Positions 5,599 through 19,815 of a stretch of 64,000 nucleotides of DNA are shown here, one piece after another. A program made the position numbers and the translations under genes. The DNA comes from Microbotryum violaceum (taxonomy: Eukaryota). Below the pieces are notes generated by a model. That model was not told the origin of the DNA. It saw only the letters and a list, made by a program, of their open reading frames with translations, and searched no databases. The first letter of the stretch is position 1. The number at the start of each line of letters is the position of its first letter. The DNA lies in the NCBI GenBank assembly GCA_001244265.2, contig CDLV01000009.1:248001-312000 (forward strand), given 5' to 3'.

Positions 5599-8500
5599 TC
5601 AGACCACTTTGACGCGTACAACACTTCCGCCTTCGGCTGCGGCCTTGCTCCTAAACGCCGAGCAAGCTTCCTTCATCGAAAAAAGTCTACCCAGACGAGG
5701 CATGAGAGAGTTGGCCTCGACGATGGGCCTCAATCGATCGAGCACATCACGCGTTGAATCGCGCTCGTCGAGCTCGAGCGAAGCAAACCAATAGTTGATG
5801 TGTTTCTTGTTCTTCTTGAAGATGTTACGACGGAACGAGCGGACCGATTCTTTGAACTGTGTCGACGAAGTGGGTGCGACAGCGGATGATTCACCGACGG
5901 TCGTCACAAACGAGCCCGAATTGAGAAGCACGCGACGAGCCGCTTCGTAGACTGTGGAAAGGGAGTAAAAGTACCTCAGATATGGTCAGCGACTTGAATC
6001 GGCCAGTGCTATTCTCCAGAAGACTTACTCTTGCTACCACCGATCGTATCAATGACGACATTAAACTCGTTCTCGTGCAAGCGGTTGATCGCCGCAAGGG
6101 GATCATCGAGGAGCACATCCGAGGCTCCGCTTTCTCGGCAAAATACTTGGTCCTCGCGTCGTTCGGGCGGGCATTGTGCGACCAAGTACAGGTCGCGGGC
6201 GGGACGAAGGTGTCGGGCAAGTTGGAGGCAGAGATTACCAACACCGATGTGGGCGCCGAGGACGAGGATCTTGGCGCCGGCTGGAACAGTGGAGCAAAGC
6301 ACCTCCATCACCTGGAGCGACGCTGCACCCGCAATCGGGAGAGTCGCAATTTGCTCGACGGTCAGATCGCACGACGGAGCCGGTGTCACGAGACTTTTGT
6401 GAATCGTGATCAAATCGGCCAACGCGCCAGACTGTCAAACGAAGGCCAGAGATGCGGTGAGTCACGACGTTGACCAATGGTAACAGCAAACATTGCGTTC
6501 TCACCTTCTTGAGGGGTTGCACGCCCCACACAAGTTCGCCTTGCTTGACCTTGTTAACTTCCAAGCCGGTGTCAACGACCTTACCGTAAAAGCCACGCCC
6601 CGGGATCCAACCAAAGCCCTCCTGTTGACTCGCCGCTTTCTTGGCGCGGTCTACGTCGACGCGCTCGATCGGGACGGCAAAGACTTCGACGAGGACTTCG
6701 TCGGACTTGACCTTCTTGGGAAGCGGTTGCATGGACGAGACGGTCAGATCGCGCAGTGGGTCAAACTTTCTTGGGGAAGCGGTCGAAGCAAGGGGAGGTG
6801 CGGCCTTTTTGAACAGGGACCACCCGCTGCCGCTCGAGGCAAAGGTCTTGGGCTGCGCACCTAAGGCTGCAATGGCCGAAACCGAGACGGCGGTCATGAG
6901 CGAGGTCGTCTGTTGAGTTGCCGTAAAGTCGATAGGATCCGCGACGAGCGACTCTCGATTCCGCGCCGCAATGATATCGTGGCGAGGGTTCTTGGGAGGG
7001 CGCGAGTGTGCGCCGGCGACTGGCATACTCATGGCGGAGAAGCCAGAGATGGATCGAGCATCGCTTTCGTCATCGGAACCAGCGTCCGAATAGCTCGAGA
7101 CGGCTTGGAGCACGTCGCGCGGGCTTTCCGACGACGACTCCAGCAGGAACGGGAAAGGAAGGGGCGTAAATTGTATCTGCGCGCTGTTGTCCGAGTTGCG
7201 CCTTGTCAACGACATTGTACGCTGCGGGGCGGTTTCGGATCTGGCCGCGTCGGAAGCCCCAGCAGGGGCCGATTGCGACAGTGACACCGATCGATCGAGA
7301 GTCGTGCGCTTGGCGCGAGGGGCAGACTCAGCCCCGCGGAGCGGTGTCGAGGGCGAGCTAGGAGCTGACGAACCCAGCGTCGGGGCAGTCGACGCGGCAT
7401 CCTCTTGCTTACAGGTAGGACGAGGTGCCTGGCGCGCAGACCCATCATAGTAGATCGGGTTCGGTAAAAATAGGCTGTCGGGTCTCGGAGCGAGCACGTG
7501 GTGGGGCAGAATCGCGGGCGGAGGTGGTGTTGGCGCCACGGCGGCTGGTTGTGGCTCGGGGTTTCTCGGCTTGCCGGTGCTCCGCTCCTTGGCCCAGGTG
7601 GGGACTCTTCGGGATGGCGAGCTGAGCGAGCGTGCGTTCCTTGATGCTGGCATTGGTAAAGCTGCGAGGGCAAGAGCACCGGCTGGAAGGGCGGGCGTGT
7701 GATCTTCGTCCTCGCGCTCCTCAGGCATTGGCGCCATGATTGACTTTGGCCGTCGAAGGTTCCCCGCACTCGCTGGACGACGCATGTCCTGGCTCGTGCT
7801 CGCTCGACTCTGTTGCTGCTGCTCAACGTGGTGCTTGACCGTCCAGTGCGGTTCCAGCGTCTTGACCTTGAGCTTGGGGAGCTCGACCAGCGGGGCGATG
7901 GGTTCGCCGAGCGCCTTGATGCGCTTCATCCATTGCGGTTGGTCTTGCGCAGCCGTCGTCGTCGTTGTCGTCGAGGCCTTCAGGTCCTCGATCGGCCCGA
8001 CGGATGCGGTTCGAGAGGATCGTTTCGAACGGGGACTGTCGGATCCGAGCGAGGGGCCACTCATCACCGGCCTGGACACGGACTCGGGCGAAGACTTGCG
8101 ACTTGCCGTCGAAGACCGGCGCGAGACTTCACCCTCAGTCTTTCGCGGGGACTGCGAATCACATCCCGACAGTTCAATGCTGCCTTGCACCTTGTCAGCA
8201 AGCTGGTCCGATGCGGTGCGAGTCAGCTGGATGCGGGGAACTTCGACAGGTGTGATCGGCGTCGTGGGTGTAGCCTCGTTGAGGGCAATCTCATGCGCGT
8301 CAGCGTCTTTGGCCAAGGAAAACTTGGTGACGATGCGCGGTATGTCGCCCGGCCCGGCTTTTTTCTTCTCGGCCGCAAGGGGGATATCATCGGTGTAGGT
8401 TGACACCGGTTCGTTTTCCGGTGTCAGAGGTTCCGAACTGGCAGCTGTGGTCGTTGTCGAAAGCGAAGGTGTCCTCGAGTCCTGTCGATGCAGCACTCGC

Positions 8501-9861
8501 AGCCTTGTCGTCAGCTAAAGTCGCCCAAACCGAGAAAGCCACGATGCCACACTTACATCGGACGCATTTCCATCGAATGCGGCCAACGACGTGCCCTCCT
8601 TTGACGGCTTCGCCTCGTTTTCCACTTTACGCCCGTGCTCGATCTGCTCTTCCTCGAGCACCTTCATGGGTGCCGTCGCTTCCTTCTTCGCCGCCGCAGT
8701 GGCCTTTTGCTTGACAGCCTCGGCCGTCGTCGGTTCCTCCTCCAGCTCGACGACGCTGTCCAAGGGCAGCCCGGCTCGCTTGACGGCCTCCTCGATGAGC
8801 GTGTTGCGCTGGGTGTGCTTCTTGCGCTTCTCCTTCTTCAGCGCATCTTTGCTCAGGGAGGGCGGCGGAAGGAGGAGGTCGGGCGAGCCCAGCATGGGCG
8901 AACTGGTAGGATACGCCGGGGTGAGGGATCCACGGCTCGACCCGGTAGAAGAAGTCGTCGAATAAAGCGAAGGGGTGCGATCGGTACCGGTCAGGGAAGG
9001 GGCATACGATGACGAGAGCGTCGGAGTTGATTTCTTGTTCCTTTGCGAGGAAGGTTTCTTACGCGTGTATTCGGTCGTCGTCACAACCTGATAGCCACTC
9101 GTCGTGACCGTTGTCGTTCCCGATGCGCTCGAATACTTGCGCGAGGTTTTCAAGGTCGAAGGATCGGGGCCAGACATGGACCGGGATCGCGAAGGTGCCG
9201 ACCCGTTACGGTAATAGTCCGAGGCCGTCGAGGACGCAATCGAAGCCGTGTCGCTGGCCTCGTGGCGTTTCAGCGATGGAGTATTGGCAACATCGGTGTA
9301 CCTCCGGCTCGTGCGTTTCGTGACGCCCGGTACTTTGAGTGTCAGTGAGCCATTGAGTTGATCGCGTGTCCACGCCGACGAGACCGAGGCCGCGCTCCGC
9401 AACGACGAGTGGCTCTTGGCGCTGCGTAGGCTCCTCCCATCGTCCTCGTAGTTAGAATACACACTATCGGCACGGATCGAGTCTGCGTCGCTCGCTGTGG
9501 CCCCTACGCGGCGCGCAACGGCGCGAGGGACGGATCTTTTCACGTCGAGCTGAGACCCAACGTCACTCGGGTGCAGACTTGAGCCCACCCCAGCCGAGCC
9601 CTTGCGCGATCCGTACATGTCCCAGCTCCACTGCTGCCCTTGTGCGCCATAATGCGCGTCGTCCCCATTGACGGACGAGGCGTGCGAGTAGGACGAGCGG
9701 ATTGAGCCCGCCGCGCCTTGTCGGAGCGAAGGGGCGCGCGACGACGATCCTGCTCCTCCTCGCGCGGTCGGGAGCGGTGGTGCCTGGTCATACGCACTCG
9801 GGCCTGCAGCTTGATACGACTGCGATGGCTTGCGTAGCAGTGTCTGAAAGAAGGAAGGCAT
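5599..9861 (-). CDS. Large protein: long low-complexity N-terminus plus C-terminal MDR (Zn-ADH/quinone-reductase-like) domain
   Basis: ORFs 8515-9978 and 6235-8496 are joined by an intron at about 8482-8556 (GTAAGT donor, GCTGAC branch, CAG acceptor); C-terminal motifs DEVLVEVFAV, WIPGRGFYGKVV, KILVLGAHIGVG, VVIDTIGG, LRPIVE. Confidence 0.75.
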
Positions 9862-13497: not shown

Positions 13498-14227
13498 GGT
13501 TCGAAATTGTATGGGGTGAGAGGGTGGGGAAGGCGGCGGGAGAGGGTGAGAGGCTGAAAAGAAAGGAGGTGGCCATTTGTGGGCGATTCAGCGCGGCGGG
13601 AATCCGCTGGAATCTCACACAAGTTTGTACTAGTTAATGGTGCCTGAGGAGGCAAAGCCAGTGCAATTTGCGGGTTTTCGCACCAAACCTGACTACACTA
13701 GTCTAGGGTTTTTTTCCGCTTGGATCTCGATAGAAACCCCATTCTGCCGGCTAACTTGAACCTCTCATGGCGACTTCAAGGCAGCTGAGATTTGAATGTA
13801 CGGCGTGGCACGTGCACTGCATGGGCGCGTTGGACGGCCGGATGGGGTCCCTTTCACTCCGAGCGCGCCGCAACACCCTGCATGCCCTGCAGCTCCCTGC
13901 AGCACCTTTCCCCAACATTGCCCAGCTCGAATCCAACCCCACACCGCCTCCTTTCCACCTCGCCTTGCCTCCTCCCGCAGGCTGTCACATTTGCGCCGGT
14001 CTCACTCGACCGAGGCGCGCCATCAACGATAGCTCAGTCACGAGCTCGGACATCTCGCCAGCTCTCACCCAGTCTCACCCGTTCGCCCTTGGCCACGTCG
14101 CTCCTCACGCCGTCGTCTGAGCCGCTCGTTCCGTCATCGCGTCATCGCCGACGTCCTTCCCCACCGTTGCTCGACGTGCATCGAACGACCGTGGTGGAAT
14201 CCAGATACGGGCATACCACCAGACACC

Positions 14228-17119
14228 ATGAGTAGGTTCCACATGAGCGTCTTGGCCCAACAACAGCAACGCCGATCTGACCCTGAATGCTCCATTGATC
14301 CCACTCCCCCACCGTTCCAGACGAAACACAGCAGCATCCGCCATCGGAGCACGACCTCGTTCGTCTCGCCACCGACCTGTCCGAAATGGCGAGCAGCAGT
14401 GGCATGTTGGGCCCGTTGCAGTTCAACCTCGACACCCTTCAAGATGACCAAGGCCAGCCTTTCCTCGTGCGTCTATTTCCTACCGATCTCTCGGAAGAGC
14501 TCTCGGAACGACTGCTCCAGATCTAGCGCAACCACGCTGACAGCTCGCGTACGACAGACTTCCAAATTCAACCAACAAGGCACTTCGCACAGGCAAGTCG
14601 AGCACCGCTTCATTCGAGCAAAGGACTCGCTCCGGAATCAAATGGAGGAGCCCCCCACAGGACCCCAATGCCACGCGACCAGGCCGGGTCAGGCGATGCG
14701 ACGAGACAGCAGAGAGCTTACCTTCGGCTCTGTCCTCCTGCGATCTGCAGATCCCCATGGACCAACCATTACATCCCTCCGATCCCGCGCAGCAGCGTCA
14801 GCGTGGCTCTTTCCGGTCGAACCAGGGCCCTCGAGGTGGCATTGAACCAAAGCGTCTCCGAGCTCCGAGATCAGTCAGTGCAACCAGCCGGAGACGAGCA
14901 TTAGCATGGGTTGGTAAAGCATACTCACTGACACGAAGGTCCACCACGATGTTGATGTAAAAGACTGTGGCCAGGTGGTATCTCGTCCGTCTATCTCCGC
15001 GAAGCCGAGGCCGCCGAATCCACCCATGGTGTCGCCCTCATTAAGAAAGGTCCGTTCGGGCCACCCTGGATTGGCTTGATCCGTTGCAACCCTAATGAGT
15101 TGATTTTCGTAGCAATTCTTTCGGCAGGTCGTGTTACGGCGTTCGATTCTAGTCAGTTAAACACCTTTACATGTCTCCGGTCCGTCAGGTCGAATGGCTG
15201 AAGCCGGCTCTTGACGTGCGCCACAGTTCACGAGTTCTCTATCTCGCATCTTCCCCACGCTCCCTCCGCATGTTATACGCTCAACTCGACCATCGAGGTC
15301 CACAAGGACAAAATCGGTGGATCGACGTCCAATTCGAGTCGATCCGAACTGCCCGTCGAAGGACCCTCGACTTCGTCGCAGCACTCGTCCCACGCCCGGA
15401 ACGTGACGCAATTGATTGAGCAGCAGGAGAAACAACTGCGCGAAACCTTGCAGGATATTCACCGATCCAGTGAGTCTGTTTCGATTCTTCGTGGTGCAAA
15501 ATGTCTGAGCTAACCGAGACTCGGTCTCTGATCCAGTCGCACCTCCCCAAGCTTCGACCACCGCCGATGACGATTACCAGAGGCATGCGTATCCGCCGGC
15601 TCCGAACGACGCGGAAGACGACTACGGCGGCTCGGAATCGCGGCATCTGCTCGACGAGTTTGGGATCGACGAAACCATGCCCCCGACGTCGGGTCGTGCT
15701 GCGGCGCAGAATGGACCCTTCACAAGGTGGCTGCGGCGCTTCCTGCAACTTCCGCTGAGGATTTTAGCGATCCCCATCGGGTTACTTGGTATCGCTTTTG
15801 GTGTCGTCGCTAGGCTCTTGCGTATCCGGCCTGGTCAAACGTCGTTGGGGCCTCGAAATCCGTTCGCGAGGGACGCTCGTAGTCTGCAGCGGATGGACCC
15901 TGTCGGATCGGCCGAACGTTTCGTGCGCTCGATCGAAGAGATGACGGGGGCGGTGCGGTGGTCCAGACGGCTGGGGGATGCCCAAGGATCGAGCTCGTCC
16001 GTCGTCGGCACGAGTTCGGGAGGTTCGTCGAGTCTCGAGCGACGACGGTCGGGTTCCAACTCGAGTGCGAGAAAGGCACTGCCAGATTTCTGGATCGGGT
16101 CGTACGAGTCGGCCCTGAAAAAAGCCAAAGATGACTTCCAGGTCTTGATGGTCGTCCTGACCTGCGATGAACACGAGGGTGACGAGTTATTTAAAAGACG
16201 GGTCCTCACCGATCCCGAATTGCTCAACGCGTTGGCGAGGGAAAAGATCCTCGTCTGGGGTGGGGACGTACGAGACGTCGATGCGTACCAAGCGTCCAAG
16301 GCGCTGCAGTTCTTCCGCTTGCCCTTTGTCGCTTTCGTCGCCTTGCAACCGCATTCGTCGAATCCGACCCTACCGGGCAGCGCGTCCATCTCATCCCCCA
16401 AGCTCTCAGTCGTGACCCGGCTGGAAGGATCCCCCAGTTCGACCCTCTCGGCCTCGAGTCTGCTCGCGCATCTTACGAACGTCGTCCTGCCCCGCGTCAA
16501 CCCCTTTCTGGCTCGTTTGAAGGCACAACATGCGACCCGGTTGGAGGAACGCCGTCTGCGCCAGGAGCAGGACCGCGCCTTTGCCATGTCGGCCCAGAAG
16601 GACGAGGAACGCGTGCTGCGCAAGCGCGCCGAGGAGAGTCAGCGACAACGCGACGTTGAGGAGCGCAAGCGCAAAGAGGAAGTGGCTTTACGAATCCGTG
16701 AGGGGTCGACAAAGTGGAGGGCGTGGAAGAGGGGTCAGTTGCAGGTCGAGGGCGAGCGAGAGGGGGTCAGGATCGGTGTACGATTGGGAGATGGGAGGAG
16801 AGTTGTGCGATCGTTCGCCAAGGATGCCAAAGTCGAAGACGTGTACGCGTACGCCGAATGCTCGTTCGAAACCGACGACGGAGAGCGTCGCGAGGCGCCT
16901 CCCGAGGATTACGAACACATTTACGAGTTCCAACTCGCCGCGCCGTTCCCGCGCTACGTGCTCGAGGTCGACGGGGACGCCGGCCAGAGGACCCTGGAGC
17001 AAATCCCTTGGTTGGAGAAGAACGTAAGTTTGATCGTCGAAGGGCTAGAGCAGAGGAGGATCTCACTGGGTAAAAGCGAGGCCAGTGATGACGAGGAGAT
17101 AGAAGAGGACGATGAATAG
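14228..17119 (+). CDS. UAS+UBX domain protein (Ubx2/FAF2-like), apparently with an N-terminal divergent F-actin capping protein beta-like domain (multi-exon)
   Basis: 3' exon: hydrophobic hairpin, LPDFWIGSYESALKKAKDD, LVWGGDVRD, RRLRQEQDRAF, VRLGDGRRVVRSF, APFPR. 5' exons: HRSPWTNHYIPP, GGISSVYL..GVALIKK, YTLNSTI, HARNVTQLIEQQEKQLRETLQDIH. In-frame intron 15470-15536 joins them. Confidence 0.8.
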
Positions 17120-17436
17120 TTCTACGCCATGACAATCGTGCAATGCCATCATCTTGCTCTTCCGTACACGGCTCTCACTTGAGGATCACAACAGCTCCTC
17201 TTACACTATTGTGGTATAACATCATAACCGGAATGCCTAAGCAAGAGGTATGAGAACTCCTCCTCAAAAACAGGAATTGACTCCTTACTGATATCAAACA
17301 CATAAGTCCCCCAAGGTCCAAAGGCATAAGAAAGATAGACAAGAACGAGAGCGAATAGAAGAACGAGGGAACGACGATTCGGAAGAAGAATTCCCGGTGC
17401 GATGCGATGGGTGCAATTTTTTGGGCCGAGCCTCCT

Positions 17437-19815
17437 TTACGAGATGTAGTTCCATACCATGCTGATGACGCCATCGGACAAGGAATTGCCCAGCGCCTTG
17501 AAGGCCGCCACGGACAGGTCAAGGTCTTGCGCGTCGAGGCAGGTCGGGCAGCTGTCGGCCACGACAGCGTCGACGCACTTGGAGGTGTCCGTGGCGCAGA
17601 TGCGCACCTCTCGACCGCAGTTCTGGCCCGCGCTGTACATCTGCGTCGTCAAGGCGACGAGAGGCGTAGAGTCCAAGTTGACCTGGCCGCAGTTGCCGGC
17701 GACGCCCTTTTGCTCAAAGTAGGTCGCCGTGCCGTTGTAGGCTGCGGTGAAGTTGCCCTTGGTCGTGGACGGCGCCGCCGCAACGTCGCCGGCGCTGTCA
17801 GTGGTGGTCGTTGAGCTCGAGCTCGTCGAGGCGGACGACGAAGAGGCGGTGCCAGCGGTTTTCCCGTTGTTGAAGATATAATCCGTGGAGCGGTTTCCGG
17901 TAAAGTGCCACTTGACGTCCATGATGACGTCGTTCTTCGAGGCCGGCCTGGCGCCCATCAGCTCGGGGAAAGCACCAATGACGACGTCGACCGAGCTAGG
18001 GGTCTTGACCCACTTGTCGTCGAACGCGTCGATCACGTAGAGGGTCATGTTGCGACCGTCTGGGGTATAGAAGATGGCCTCAAGTCCGCAGTCTGTGCGA
18101 GTGGGGTGGGGGTGCACGAAAGGGTATCAGTTGCCATCCAGCAAGGAGAGGGTGGGGAAAGAACTCGACTGCGCGAACTCACAAGCTTCTCCGGCCTTGA
18201 TGGGATCGCCGCCATAGTTGGAAACCATGGTCTTGTAAGACGGTGCGAAACCGGGCATCGAGTCGTTGTACGGATTGTAGCACCAAGAGTGACCGTTGGT
18301 CGAGTCGGCAGAGTTGTTGGTGCGGAACCAAGAAGCGATCGCGCCCGTGTTGTTGCTCAGATTTTGCGCTCCAAAGCCGGTGATGTTGTTCTGGGCGATA
18401 TTGGCGGCGATGATGCTCGTGTTGGCGGGGAGCAAGAGCGGGATCGTGTAGTTGAGCGGTTGCGACGAGCCGACGTTGGTGGCGACGTTGCCTCCGGAGG
18501 AGTAGACGTACGAGTCGTTCGACGAACTCGAACCCGAGCCCGTGTTGACGCTGACGGTAACGGTCACGGTCTTGACGGCCGCTGCCGAAGCCACTGTTGG
18601 GGTGGCCAAGACGGTGATCGTAACGGGCTCTGCTGTAACGGTGACAATTGAAGTCACAACTTGGGCCGCGATCGAGGCAGCAGCACGACTTGCCGCCGCT
18701 GTAGTGGCGGCAGCAGTGCGACTTGCCGCTGCGGTAGTAGCCGCGGCAGCCGATCCTGAGGCGGCGCTCGCCGAGGCTGAGGCTGAGGCTGCTCGAGAGT
18801 GAGTCGTGGCCGCCGCCGCCGCCGTCGTTGCAGCGGCCACAGCGGCCGCAGCACTCGTCGTGGCCGCTGCGGCAGTGGTGGCAGCATCGGTCTGAACCGA
18901 AACCTCTGCGGCTGTCTTGGCTACAGCTGCGGTCGAGGACGACGAATGGACTACCACAGCGAGAATTCGTGCCGATGCGAGGCTGTTGCCATCGATGACG
19001 CACGAAGGCTCTGGCCAAAAGTTGAACGCGTACCCTTCGTTGCAGCCTGCCAAGATTAAGATTATTTAAGAGGAGTCAGTCAAGATGTACATCGTCTTGA
19101 CAAGATTCGAGAATGGGGTCTCGAGCCAATTTCGCCCAGGGCAATGGGTCGCACTTAATAAATGCAACCGCATGGACACGCGGCTTGCGGCCTCGCGGCG
19201 CTCGACCCCCGACGAGTTGGGACGAGGCAAGCGGGGCGCCGCATTGATCGGCGCGCGCTCCCGCTCGCGCACTCCGACCGGGCATCCGACCGGCGACAAT
19301 GATGCAGACGCGCACTGGACTTACGATACGAGCAAATCGAGCCGGGGCACACCGCAAAGGCGTTGGCCGGAATAGTCAATTCGTCGCAATCACTGTCGGC
19401 GTCGCACGTGATTGCACGCTTGCGCAGATCGCGCAGGACTGGACAATTCGAGAGTCGGGAGTCGAGTCGAGTCGAGAGCGACCGCGCGCGCGCGGGGTAA
19501 CGCAAGGGTTTAGCGCAATTGGATTGGTTCCGGAAATGGGCAGAGAACGTGAGGCCCAGAGCGCCAAAACAAAGGAGAGAGTCGAACCAGTCAGCTCCTC
19601 GTGCTCGAACACGGAGACCACGAAACAAATGGCAAGCAGGACGATGGTCCATTGAATGCCTATCGAGGTCATGGTAATTGTCAAGACTAACCTGGATAGC
19701 CATCATTCGTATCACGCTGGAAGAGCGAGTTCTTGATCGCCGGCAATGCGACGGCCTCCGCGACCAGGGGCGCCAGCGCCAGCAAAGCCGAGATGAAAGG
19801 AGCGGCGACGACCAT
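17437..19815 (-). CDS. Secreted expansin-like/RlpA (DPBB) protein with Cys-rich N-terminus, Ala/Ser/Thr linker and probably two DPBB-type domains
   Basis: Signal peptide MVVAAPFISALLALAPLVAEAVA; C-terminal GTATYFEQKGVAGNCG, NCGREVRI, VADSCPTC, LDLSVAAF; a second diverged domain (WFRTNNSADSTNGHSWC...YVIDAFDD). Confidence 0.8.

What the first reader, a model, noticed from the sequence alone, without database searches (positions are those of the whole stretch)
14228..17119. Divergent actin capping-protein beta domain spliced in frame to a Cdc48 adaptor (UAS-UBX)
Seen: small exons invisible as long ORFs reconstruct to ...QPFLTSKFNQQGTSHRSPWTNHYIPP..RTRALEVALNQ..GGISSVYL..GVALIKK..YTLNSTI..GGS..SHARNVTQLIEQQEKQLRETLQDIH. 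Established: CapZ-beta/Cap2 has the colinear motifs YNRDGDSYRSPWSN, LRKLE, GGVSSVYLWD..LIKK, YKLTSTV, HIANIGRLVEDME. A textbook intron (GTGAGT 15470, GCTAAC 15509, CAG 15536) joins this in frame to the UBX ORF, where Ubx2/FAF2 normally has a UBA domain. Retaining the intron gives a stand-alone cap-beta-like protein stopping at 15513. Inference: a chimeric gene possibly linking Cdc48/p97 to actin barbed ends or dynactin, perhaps with two isoforms.
Basis: partly seen in the sequence, partly recalled or inferred. Interest (0 to 1): 0.72.

Follow-up and report, generated by a model that had tools for sequence, protein, structure and literature searches.

The report
Capping-protein-like domain fused to Cdc48 adaptor
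In the anther-smut fungus Microbotryum, one gene makes a membrane-anchored Cdc48/p97 adaptor whose usual ubiquitin-binding head has been replaced by a cut-down, fast-evolving copy of the actin capping protein beta subunit, an unusual domain swap whose function is still unknown.

Summary
The window is Microbotryum lychnidis-dioicae. An 8-exon model (CDS 14228-17119, + strand, 7 introns) translates exactly to the public 752-aa protein MVLG_05925. The spliced protein scores 107.7 bits, E 9e-31, on Pfam F_actin_cap_B, and also hits UBX.

Spliced contigs from two runs of two studies carry all seven junctions. One is identical to the window; the other is a relative at 90-95% likeness. Both include 15469->15537, which joins the cap-like exons in frame to the UBX exon.

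Orthologues in Rhodotorula and Sporobolomyces have a UBA-like domain at that position. Homology to them starts upstream of the first in-frame ATG of the UBX exon.

The cap-like domain is a truncated, very divergent paralogue:
- It lacks helix 1 and the beta tentacle.
- It keeps 49 of 114 conserved columns.
- It keeps 1 of 3 beta-subunit basic residues.

A canonical CAP2 (MVLG_03131) lies elsewhere in the genome.

The gene is already annotated, but four literature searches found no description of it. The fused domain's function is inferred, not shown. The two-isoform idea is untested.

The parts
14228..17119 (+). Whole coding region of the fused gene (MVLG_05925), 8 exons, 752 codons plus stop
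   Evidence: Script translation of the 8 exons is identical to P0001. P0001 is 100% identical to the window ORF.
14228..14231 (+). Exon 1, coding part (ATG plus 1 nt). The 5' UTR extends upstream of 14150.
   Evidence: Joint 14231->14321 in the X12 contig. That contig continues upstream of 14150.
14232..14320 (+). Intron 1 (89 nt, GT..AG)
   Evidence: joint in X12. X3 has a joint at 14231->14326 with 5 other letters between.
14467..14557 (+). Intron 2 (91 nt, GT..AG)
   Evidence: joints in X12 and X3.
14593..14750 (+). Intron 3 (158 nt, GC..AG, donor GCAAGT)
   Evidence: joint 14589->14748 with 3 letters fitting either side, in X12 and X3. Only the +3 placement gives a known splice type and the P0001 frame.
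14874..14963 (+). Intron 4 (90 nt, GT..AG)
   Evidence: joint in X12. X3 is offset by 1.
15050..15112 (+). Intron 5 (63 nt, GT..AG)
   Evidence: joint 15047->15111 read with the cut +2, in X12. X3 differs locally, with 14 other letters between.
15152..15226 (+). Intron 6 (75 nt, GT..AG)
   Evidence: joints in X12 and X3.
15470..15536 (+). Intron 7 (67 nt, GTGAGT..GCTAAC..CAG), the fusion intron. Its removal joins the cap-like exon 7 in frame to the UBX exon 8. Its retention would stop translation at 15511-15513.
   Evidence: joint 15469->15537 in X12 and X3, with 243 letters on the shorter side..
14347..15468 (+). Capping-protein-beta-like domain (residues 11-225, spread over exons 2-7)
   Evidence: Pfam PF01115 at E 9.3e-31 over residues 29-223. 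PDB CapZ beta at E 2e-23, query 11-223 on chain 25-232. AlphaFold2 model with pLDDT 85.9. Foldseek TM 0.74 to CapZ beta chains.
15581..15598 (+). RHAYPP motif (residues 241-246). This is the first stretch alignable to the UBA-bearing orthologues, and it lies upstream of the first in-frame ATG of exon 8.
   Evidence: Alignment A1.
15677..15679 (+). First in-frame ATG of exon 8 (Met273), the only possible start of a stand-alone UBX protein
15740..15826 (+). Single hydrophobic segment (residues 294-322, ...LPLRILAIPIGLLGIAFGVVARLL...), read as a FAF2/Ubx2-type membrane hairpin
   Evidence: Kyte-Doolittle scan: the only 19-residue windows at or above 1.6 start at residues 294-304. The position matches the hydrophobic block of the orthologues. 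The hairpin topology itself is inferred.
16091..16339 (+). UAS / thioredoxin-like region (residues 411-493)
   Evidence: Pfam Thioredoxin_7 at 22.4 bits, below the cut-off of 27. The aligned region of orthologues P0004 and P0014 passes at 30.9 and 31.6 bits.
16505..16735 (+). Charged helical region before UBX (about residues 549-625). This is the place of the ubiquitin-binding helix (UBH) of FAF2.
   Evidence: Conserved columns in A1. The UBH is described in PMC12630741 (passages). The assignment here is by position only.
16763..17041 (+). UBX domain (residues 635 to about 727, with the FPR loop at 696-698)
   Evidence: Pfam PF00789 at 34.8 bits, cut-off 21, residues 635-705. The P0002 match runs to profile position 81 of 82. 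FPR is at residue 696, and P697 and R698 are invariant in A1.

Best explanation
This is one gene, MVLG_05925 of Microbotryum lychnidis-dioicae, that makes one mRNA and a 752-residue protein.

Domain order from N to C:
- a truncated, strongly diverged paralogue of the F-actin capping protein beta subunit (residues about 11-225)
- a short acidic linker
- one hydrophobic membrane hairpin (294-322)
- a thioredoxin-like UAS region
- a charged helix
- a UBX domain

Shown here: the splicing, the reading frame, the domain content, the presence of the fusion in at least three annotated Microbotryum species, a UBA-like domain at that place in Sporidiobolales and Agaricomycotina orthologues, and a separate canonical CAP2 in the same genome.

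Inferred, with my odds:
- About 0.8: the protein still works as a FAF2/Ubx2-type adaptor that sits in ER, lipid-droplet or peroxisome membranes through its hairpin and holds Cdc48 through UBX. That core does not need the UBA domain in human FAF2.
- About 0.6: the cap-like head came from a CAP2 copy that lay next to the adaptor gene, and was joined to it by loss of the gene boundary and gain of intron 7.
- About 0.75: the head does not cap filaments by itself, because it lacks the beta tentacle, helix 1 and two of the three beta-subunit basic residues.
- About 0.35: what it docks is the alpha subunit Cap1, because a beta subunit's sheet and long helix are normally completed by alpha.
- About 0.4: it docks a new partner or has no partner.

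In short, the head most likely serves as a protein-docking module rather than a capping module.
For: Gene model and RNA:
- The 8-exon translation is identical to P0001.
- The X12 contig (100% identical, study P5) and the X3 contig (90-95% likeness, study P3) lack all 7 introns, including 15470-15536. X8 holds the unspliced DNA.

Domains:
- Pfam gives F_actin_cap_B 107.7 bits, UBX 34.8 bits and Thioredoxin_7 22.4 bits.
- All 13 PDB sequences matched at E <= 0.01 are capping protein beta chains.
- The AlphaFold2 model has pLDDT 85.9 and matches CapZ beta at TM 0.74, against 0.56-0.61 for alpha chains.
- There is one hydrophobic segment, and the FPR loop is kept.

The swap:
- 3 of 44 relatives of the UBX part carry PF01115, and all three are Microbotryum. 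The other 41 do not.
- Orthologues P0014 and P0016 carry UBA_4 above its cut-off. P0004 is below it.
- Homology to the orthologues begins at RHAYPP, 27 codons upstream of Met273.

Paralogy:
- Canonical CAP2 genes are P0240 (MVLG_03131), P0244 and P0250.
- The cap-like domain is 32.6% identical to its own species' CAP2.
- The maximum-likelihood tree puts it inside the Microbotryomycetes CAP2 set, with support 98/98.

Neighbourhood:
- In 4 of 6 Sporidiobolales assemblies where both locus tags are listed, CAP2 and the adaptor are two tags apart on a contig of the same length.

Constraint:
- The frame is open over 7 introns in the window and in the X3 relative.
- The differences shown against X3 are 10 synonymous to 11 non-synonymous in the cap-like part.

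Losses:
- The PDB alignment starts at chain residue 25 and ends at 232.
- 49 of 114 columns conserved in 107 canonical sequences are kept. R195 is N, K223 is Q, and R225 is kept. The residue roles are from PMC3472329 (passages).

UBA is dispensable and the UBH-UBX module essential in human FAF2: PMC12630741 (passages).
Against: - No protein-level or binding data exist for this protein. Every functional step is inference.
- The contigs cannot show transcript starts or ends. The X12 contig also runs about 2 kb past the gene into the neighbours, so contig continuity alone does not prove a single mRNA. Only the splice junction does.
- Neither X12 nor X3 is on record as RNA. Their RNA nature is inferred from the missing introns.
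- The cap-like domain has lost more than half of the family's conserved positions. It evolves faster than the rest of the protein: 80.5% against 90.8% identity between M. lychnidis-dioicae and M. intermedium. That also fits decay.
- The origin is not settled. AU tests reject none of 4 alternative placements, including with animals (p 0.090) or outside fungi (p 0.127).
- The stem branch is at the program's ceiling of 10.
- The neighbourhood argument rests on locus-tag numbers and contig lengths, not on DNA. It fails in 2 of 6 assemblies.
- The thioredoxin-like hit is below Pfam's cut-off.
- The AlphaFold2 model used an alignment made almost wholly of canonical sequences, so it leans towards their fold.
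Confidence: 0.8

Rival explanations
1. The cap-like exons are a decaying relic. A CAP2 duplicate was captured as a 5' extension of the adaptor gene. It is still translated but has no function of its own, and the protein works only through its hairpin-UAS-UBX part.
For: - Only 49 of 114 conserved columns are kept, and 2 of 3 basic residues are lost.
- Helix 1 and the tentacle are missing.
- The stem branch is at the ceiling.
- Identity between species is lower than in the rest of the protein, 80.5% against 90.8%.
- The share of non-synonymous changes is higher: 11 of 21 against 6 of 18 among the differences shown.
- The word-based search found no short relative at E <= 0.001 among 738 candidates.
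Against: - An open frame is kept across seven introns and eight exons in the window and in a relative at 90-95% likeness, with the same junctions.
- The fused models of M. saponariae and M. intermedium also read through it.
- Core fold motifs (SPWTN, GGISSVYL, LIKK, YTLNST) and 25 invariant columns are kept.
- Roughly equal synonymous and non-synonymous counts are fewer non-synonymous changes than random change would give. That count is small and covers only 39 of about 120 differences.
- The model folds with confidence, though with a canonical-rich alignment.
Confidence: 0.25
2. Two products from one locus. Besides the fused protein, retention of intron 7 gives a stand-alone 239-residue cap-beta-like protein, and/or an internal start gives a UBA-less adaptor from Met273.
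For: - Retention of the 67-nt intron gives a stop at 15511-15513 after 14 extra residues.
- Met273 lies 21 residues before the hairpin.
- Contigs drop rare variants and cannot show starts or ends (stated).
Against: - Neither spliced contig retains intron 7.
- The only record covering part of intron 7 (X1, 15510-15710) comes from a run that also covers introns 3, 4 and 5. That run therefore looks like DNA or unspliced material.
- The linker upstream of Met273 is conserved with orthologues, so it is coding.
Confidence: 0.15
3. Two separate genes, a small cap-beta-like gene and a UBX gene starting at 15677, merged only by gene prediction and by transcript assembly.
For: - The X12 contig also runs on into neighbouring genes, so assembly can merge transcripts.
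- Other long capping-beta models in public data look like merged neighbours: Rrp15p plus cap in P0061, and CPSF_A plus cap in P0079.
Against: - A splice junction needs both sites on one pre-mRNA, and 15469->15537 is present in two runs of two studies.
- It is in frame.
- The donor lies at the point where a canonical beta subunit would go on for about 40 more residues.
- The acceptor lies 140 nt upstream of the first ATG, in sequence that is homologous to coding sequence of the orthologues.
- Unlike the merged models, this domain is truncated at both ends.
Confidence: 0.04

Closest known systems
F-actin capping protein beta subunit (CapZ beta / Cap2, Pfam PF01115)
   Same: Clear sequence membership: 107.7 bits against a cut-off of 26.3, and E 2e-23 to chicken CapZ beta. 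The predicted fold is the same, with TM 0.74. The order of core motifs is the same.
   Different: - It is not a free-standing protein of about 280 residues but the head of a 752-residue membrane protein.
- It lacks the first helix (chain residues 1-24) and everything after residue 232, including the actin-binding beta tentacle.
- It keeps 49 of 114 conserved columns. R195 and K223 are replaced.
- It is 32.6% identical to the canonical CAP2 of its own species, which in turn is 53.5% identical to a fish CapZ beta.
FAF2 / UBXD8 (animals), Ubx2 (yeast), PUX10 (plants): membrane-hairpin UBA-UAS-UBH-UBX adaptors of p97/Cdc48
   Same: The order hydrophobic segment, thioredoxin-like region, charged helix, UBX is the same. 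UBX has the FPR loop. The best relatives are fungal UBX proteins of this build. The protein-atlas neighbours are all UBX clusters, several with UBA_4.
   Different: No UBA domain. A capping-beta-like domain of about 215 residues stands in its place. No PDB chain of this family matched by sequence at E <= 0.01. Membrane insertion and Cdc48 binding were not tested.
Orthologues in Sporidiobolales (Rhodotorula, Rhodosporidiobolus, Sporobolomyces; about 600 aa, named UBX domain-containing protein 10 or UBX3 by their sources)
   Same: 35-42% identity over 82-94% of the UBX ORF, E down to 1e-95. They share the linker motif RH[AP]YPP, the hydrophobic block, the UAS, the helix and the UBX.
   Different: They start with a UBA-like domain of about 50 residues. 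UBA_4 scores 33.6 bits in P0014 and 17.4 bits, below cut-off, in P0004. None carries PF01115. In 4 of 6 assemblies their canonical CAP2 gene lies two locus tags away.
Other long public models with a capping-beta domain (P0061 Babjeviella Rrp15p plus cap; P0079 CPSF_A/DDB1-like plus cap)
   Same: PF01115 sits together with another family in one predicted protein.
   Different: There the capping domain is complete (profile 1-237), canonical (313-319 bits) and C-terminal, as expected from merged neighbouring gene models. No RNA was examined for them here.

Membership tests
F-actin capping protein beta (PF01115) | Sequence match to the family profile above the curated cut-off | tested here: met
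   107.7 bits against 26.3, E 9.3e-31. In M. intermedium 70.6 bits. The M. saponariae model scores 31.9 bits, but that model is partly mis-spliced.
F-actin capping protein beta (PF01115) | Capping-beta fold (stalk helices, globule, five-stranded half of the central sheet, long helix H5) | tested here: met
   AlphaFold2 pLDDT 85.9, pTM 0.80. Foldseek best 25+ hits are all beta chains, TM 0.68-0.74, E about 3e-13. Caveat: 39 of the 40 alignment rows are canonical sequences.
F-actin capping protein beta (PF01115) | Complete domain including the first stalk helix | tested here: not met
   The profile is matched only from position 33. The PDB alignment starts at chain residue 25 with 10 query residues before it.
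F-actin capping protein beta (PF01115) | C-terminal amphipathic beta tentacle (L258, L262, L266 in chicken) needed for actin binding | tested here: not met
   Homology ends at chain residue 232. What follows is the acidic linker of the adaptor. The tentacle's role is from PMC3472329 (passages).
F-actin capping protein beta (PF01115) | Beta-subunit basic residues R195, K223, R225 that add to the actin-binding patch | tested here: not met
   N, Q and R at the aligned columns in both fused sequences. These columns are 98-100% conserved in 107 canonical sequences. The chicken numbers were mapped through a fish sequence that has a 7-residue insert.
F-actin capping protein beta (PF01115) | Obligate heterodimer with the alpha subunit (Cap1) | not testable with these tools
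F-actin capping protein beta (PF01115) | Caps barbed ends of actin filaments | not testable with these tools
   Needs a biochemical assay.
FAF2/UBXD8/Ubx2-type Cdc48 adaptor | UBX domain with the R...FPR signature | tested here: met
   PF00789 at 34.8 bits against 21. FPR is at 696-698. P697 and R698 are invariant in 8 of 8 aligned orthologues.
FAF2/UBXD8/Ubx2-type Cdc48 adaptor | Thioredoxin-like UAS domain | tested here: inconclusive
   Thioredoxin_7 at 22.4 bits, below the cut-off of 27. The same region passes in P0004 (30.9) and P0014 (31.6) and aligns throughout.
FAF2/UBXD8/Ubx2-type Cdc48 adaptor | Hydrophobic membrane anchor between the N-terminal domain and UAS | tested here: met
   There is one hydrophobic segment, residues 294-322, with peak Kyte-Doolittle 2.24, aligned with that of the orthologues. 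Its topology was not tested.
FAF2/UBXD8/Ubx2-type Cdc48 adaptor | N-terminal UBA domain | tested here: not met
   No UBA family at E <= 0.01 in P0001, P0002 or P0003. UBA_4 is present in P0014 and P0016 and is below cut-off in P0004.
FAF2/UBXD8/Ubx2-type Cdc48 adaptor | Binds Cdc48/p97 and recruits it to membranes | not testable with these tools
   Needs pull-down and localisation experiments.

The most novel reading that the evidence does not exclude
The cap-beta-like head still pairs with the alpha subunit Cap1. That would build a tentacle-less capping-protein-like heterodimer anchored in the ER, lipid-droplet or peroxisome membrane and wired to Cdc48. Such a complex could hold or release actin (or dynactin Arp1) barbed ends at organelle membranes. 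Alternatively it could let Cdc48 control the pool of free alpha subunit, and through it the cell's capping activity. Either would be a direct physical link between the p97/Cdc48 unfoldase and the actin capping machinery, which no known UBX adaptor provides.
Probability: 0.2. Interest if true: 0.75.

Novelty: new variant of a known kind. Interest (0 to 1): 0.45.

Why it matters
UBX adaptors give Cdc48/p97 its targets through their N-terminal modules. The capping protein beta fold is almost always a free-standing subunit. Among the best 150 relatives of this domain in 1.84 billion representatives, only the Microbotryum cluster had it as a truncated head on another protein.

A natural swap of the UBA domain for a capping-beta-like domain has three uses:
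- It is an evolutionary experiment that agrees with the recent finding that FAF2's UBA is dispensable (PMC12630741).
- It offers a test case for how an obligate-heterodimer fold fares after fusion.
- If the head still binds Cap1, it would be a new route from the Cdc48 system to actin.

It also shows how a gene fusion may arise from genes that are near neighbours in sister lineages.

It is confined, so far, to one genus of plant-castrating smut fungi, and the gene model is already public. The value lies in the interpretation and the follow-up, not in the discovery of a gene.

Tried and rejected
- Whole-genome search of the window's own genome for PF01115: no genome is held for this window.
- RNA runs: no listed holder is on record as RNA. 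I laid 4 of the 13 listed runs. X1 gave 6 short unspliced pieces at low depth and says nothing on splicing.
- Word-based search of the cap-like region (residues 1-236) against shorter proteins: 738 candidates, none at E <= 0.001. The full HMMER scan was needed to reach canonical relatives.
- Self-pairing of the cap-like domain: complex prediction with two copies gave 'no answer' (score 0.00, controls not run, the alignment was not used). I take nothing from it either way.
- Pairing with Cap1 alpha could not be tried, because no alpha sequence was obtainable.
- Placing the origin by tests: four AU tests rejected nothing. Held with Microbotryum CAP2, p 0.089. Outside the class, p 0.125. With animals, p 0.090. 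Outside fungi, p 0.127.
- The SPWTN motif, shared by the fused domain and Microbotryum CAP2, is not diagnostic. It occurs in 60 of 266 sequences counted, one of which (P0054) was counted twice, and these include animal ones.
- dN/dS proper could not be computed. One search prints only 40 of about 120 differences. I classed 39, dropping one in the 5' UTR.
- Pfam scan of 12 neighbouring long ORFs to look for synteny clues gave only an ADH_N hit and a sub-threshold DPBB_1 hit.
- The protein atlas gave only UBX clusters, none with PF01115.
- Literature: four searches listed no paper on this protein or on a capping-beta/UBX fusion.
- I did not test the dynactin idea. Nothing available bears on it.
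Full report
**What the window is.** The UBX-bearing ORF (15509-17116) is 100% identical to a 752-aa public protein, MVLG_05925 of Microbotryum lychnidis-dioicae p1A1 Lamole (P0001). Its precomputed Pfam domains are PF01115 and PF00789. The window is therefore from an anther-smut fungus (Basidiomycota, Microbotryomycetes). No whole genome is held for it.

**Check of the observation.** I read 13600-17700 and listed stop-to-stop frames.
- Of six frame pieces given to Pfam, two hit F_actin_cap_B colinearly: E 7.7e-5 on profile 67-104 and E 2.1e-4 on profile 147-229. Each alone is below the 26.3-bit cut-off.
- The large ORF hit UBX at 35.5 bits and Thioredoxin_7 at 22.9 bits. Three pieces hit nothing.
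- A script joined eight exons: 14228-14231, 14321-14466, 14558-14592, 14751-14873, 14964-15049, 15113-15151, 15227-15469 and 15537-17119. The result is a 2259-nt frame with one terminal stop, and its translation equals P0001 letter for letter.
- The spliced protein scores 107.7 bits (E 9.3e-31) on F_actin_cap_B, residues 29-223 on profile 33-229 of 237. It scores 34.8 bits on UBX and 22.4 bits on Thioredoxin_7, which is below its cut-off of 27.
Retaining that intron gives a 239-aa product ending at 15513.

**RNA evidence.** No run is on record as RNA. I laid four of the 13 listed runs.
- X8 holds the whole stretch unspliced and identical. It is DNA and may be the source of the assembly.
- X12 (study P5) has one 4831-letter contig, identical to the window, that skips all seven introns at the model's boundaries.
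- X3 (study P3) has a 4377-letter contig at 90-95% likeness, so a relative. It skips the same seven introns, with small local differences at introns 1, 4 and 5.
- Both contigs carry the joint 15469->15537, with 243 letters on the shorter side.
- The joint for intron 3 can be placed in four ways. Only 14593-14750 gives a known splice type (GC..AG, donor GCAAGT) and the right frame.
- Contigs can merge neighbouring transcripts, and X12's runs about 2 kb beyond the gene. So I rest the case on the junction itself, because both splice sites must lie on one pre-mRNA.
- Contigs cannot show starts, ends or rare isoforms.

**Where relatives have a UBA domain.**
- Among 44 relatives of the UBX ORF at E <= 1e-5 (8000 candidates scored), three carry PF01115: M. 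lychnidis-dioicae, M. saponariae (811 aa) and M. intermedium (776 aa). The other 41 do not carry it.
- Pfam finds UBA_4 in Sporobolomyces ruberrimus P0014 (33.6 bits) and Calocera P0016 (38.7 bits). In Rhodotorula toruloides P0004 it is below cut-off (17.4 bits). It finds none in the three Microbotryum proteins.
- In the alignment of 8 sequences, homology between the Microbotryum proteins and the others begins at RHAYPP (residues 241-246; window 15581-15598). That is upstream of the first in-frame ATG of exon 8 (Met273, 15677).
- The UBX exon therefore cannot encode the ancestral protein from its own ATG. It needs an upstream exon.
- The public models of M. saponariae and M. intermedium differ from P0001 in the cap-like part in ways that look like retained or skipped introns. 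I used only P0001 and P0003 in trees and left P0002 out.

**What the cap-like domain is.**
- Against PDB sequences, all 13 matches at E <= 0.01 are capping protein beta chains. The best is E 2.1e-23, query 11-223 on chain 25-232.
- The first stalk helix is therefore missing, and so is everything after residue 232, including the beta tentacle.
- A full HMMER scan of 1.84 billion representatives with residues 1-226 found 292 proteins at E <= 0.001 and 45 at <= 1e-10. Only one was at <= 1e-30, the Microbotryum cluster itself. The rest are canonical beta subunits at about 30-38% identity.
- Among 107 canonical sequences, 114 columns are at least 90% identical. The fused domain keeps 49 of them, or 59 counting similar residues.
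- Residues invariant elsewhere are replaced. In fish P0292 numbering these include W122R, Y107L, D63K and K175T, and the TRQ motif is SNS.
- Of the beta-subunit basic residues R195, K223 and R225 (roles from passages of PMC3472329), only R225 is kept.
- An AlphaFold2 model has pLDDT 85.9 and pTM 0.80. It was built on an alignment of this domain with 39 canonical sequences, so it leans towards them.
- The model matches CapZ beta chains at TM 0.68-0.74 and alpha chains at 0.56-0.61.

**A canonical CAP2 exists.**
- One hit, P0054, is the beta subunit of Rhodotorula graminis.
- Using it as query, 3557 proteins scored E <= 1e-10 among 8000 candidates. The best 120 listed include MVLG_03131 of M. 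lychnidis-dioicae (P0240, 287 aa, 61% identity, a different contig) and the M. intermedium and M. silenes-dioicae proteins.
- P0240 has every canonical motif and a tentacle.
- The fused domain is 32.6% identical to it, while P0240 is 53.5% identical to a fish CapZ beta. The fused domain is therefore a second, diverged copy.

**Origin.**
- A maximum-likelihood tree of 38 rows puts the two fused domains together (100/100), inside the set of Microbotryomycetes CAP2 (18 rows, 98/98). They sit on a stem branch at the ceiling of 10 changes per column, and their place within the set is unresolved.
- AU tests reject none of four constraints: with Microbotryum CAP2 (p 0.089), outside the class (p 0.125), with animals (p 0.090, 3.5 log units worse), outside all fungi (p 0.127). 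The tree favours a home-grown duplicate but does not prove it.
- A second clue comes from names and contig lengths. In 4 of 6 Sporidiobolales assemblies where both genes carry comparable locus tags, CAP2 and the adaptor are two tags apart on a contig of the same length:
  - R. graminis 003956/003958
  - R. babjevae 005518/005516
  - Rhodosporidiobolus ruineniae 001387/001385
  - Sporobolomyces ruberrimus 006108/006110
- In R. taiwanensis and Rhodosporidiobolus microsporus they are not close.
- In R. kratochvilovae and R. paludigena both lie on contigs of equal length.
- In Microbotryum the canonical CAP2 is on another contig or chromosome.
- I infer that a CAP2 copy near the adaptor gene was joined to it. 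I saw no DNA of those loci, and strand and order are unknown.

**Is the head kept by selection?**
- Between M. lychnidis-dioicae and M. intermedium the head is 80.5% identical (169 of 210). The rest of the protein is 90.8% and the canonical CAP2 89.0%.
- Of the coding differences to the X3 relative that one search prints (39 classed, about 80 not shown), the head has 10 synonymous and 11 non-synonymous. The first 250 nt of exon 8 have 12 and 6.
- This points to weaker but real constraint. It is a small, incomplete sample.

**The adaptor part.**
- There is one hydrophobic segment (294-322), an FPR loop at 696-698 and a charged helix before UBX.
- This reproduces the build of FAF2/UBXD8/Ubx2.
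- Passages of PMC12630741 state that FAF2 is anchored by a hairpin-like membrane anchor. They also state that deleting its UBA domain does not impair substrate unfolding or extraction, while the UBX-adjacent ubiquitin-binding helix is required.
- That makes loss of the UBA domain tolerable, and it leaves the N-terminus free to carry something else.

**How it most likely works.**
- Shown: one spliced mRNA and one open frame with this domain order.
- Inferred: a membrane-anchored Cdc48 adaptor whose head is a docking module rather than a capper, because the tentacle, helix 1 and most of the basic patch are gone.
- A beta subunit normally completes its sheet with alpha, so Cap1 is the first candidate partner (my odds 0.35). 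A new partner or no partner is about as likely.
- A two-copy complex prediction gave no verdict, and I draw nothing from it.

**Novelty.**
- The gene model and its Pfam domains are public, so the gene is not new.
- Four full-text searches listed no paper on it or on any capping-beta/UBX fusion. Supplements were closed.
- Other long proteins with PF01115 among the relatives are complete canonical domains joined to Rrp15p or a CPSF_A-type protein. They look like merged gene models.
- The protein atlas shows no cluster with both families.
- I rate it a new variant of a known kind of adaptor. It is moderately interesting, and of real interest only if the head proves to bind Cap1 or actin.

Noticed in passing
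window 14593-14750: Intron 3 of the fused gene is a GC-AG intron (donor GCAAGT). Both spliced contigs skip it. The joint can be placed in four ways, and only GC..AG is a known splice type.
   Followed up: partly
P0002 (M. saponariae, 811 aa) and P0003 (M. intermedium, 776 aa): The public models of the same gene in two sister species look mis-spliced in the cap-like part. P0002 reads through the equivalent of intron 3 and reads exon 4 out of frame. P0003 starts earlier, lacks the 13 residues of exon 6 and has 9 extra residues at the fusion junction. Their Pfam cap-beta scores drop accordingly: 31.9 and 70.6 bits against 107.7.
   Followed up: partly
Sporidiobolales proteins P0007/P0194, P0009/P0213, P0010/P0222, P0014/P0227: The canonical CAP2 and the UBA-UBX adaptor gene are two locus tags apart on the same contig in four species. 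This is a conserved near-neighbourhood that may explain how the fusion arose. The gene in between was not identified.
   Followed up: partly
window 17437-18126 (- strand) and 18127-19065 (- strand): A convergent downstream gene has a DPBB_1 (RlpA/expansin-like) match at 25.9 bits, below the cut-off of 28.8. It is preceded by a long Ser/Thr/Ala-rich frame, so it is perhaps a secreted wall-acting protein. The X12 transcript contig runs on from the fused gene into this region, which suggests overlapping 3' ends.
   Followed up: partly
P0061 (Babjeviella inositovora, 505 aa); P0079 (1693 aa, source not looked up): These public proteins join a complete canonical capping-beta domain to Rrp15p or to a CPSF_A/DDB1-type beta-propeller protein. 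They are probably merged neighbouring gene models.
   Followed up: no
window 6235-8514 (- strand): A long frame with an ADH_N (GroES-like alcohol dehydrogenase) match at 26.6 bits. Nine of the other long frames scanned in the first 25 kb had no Pfam family as unspliced frames.
   Followed up: no
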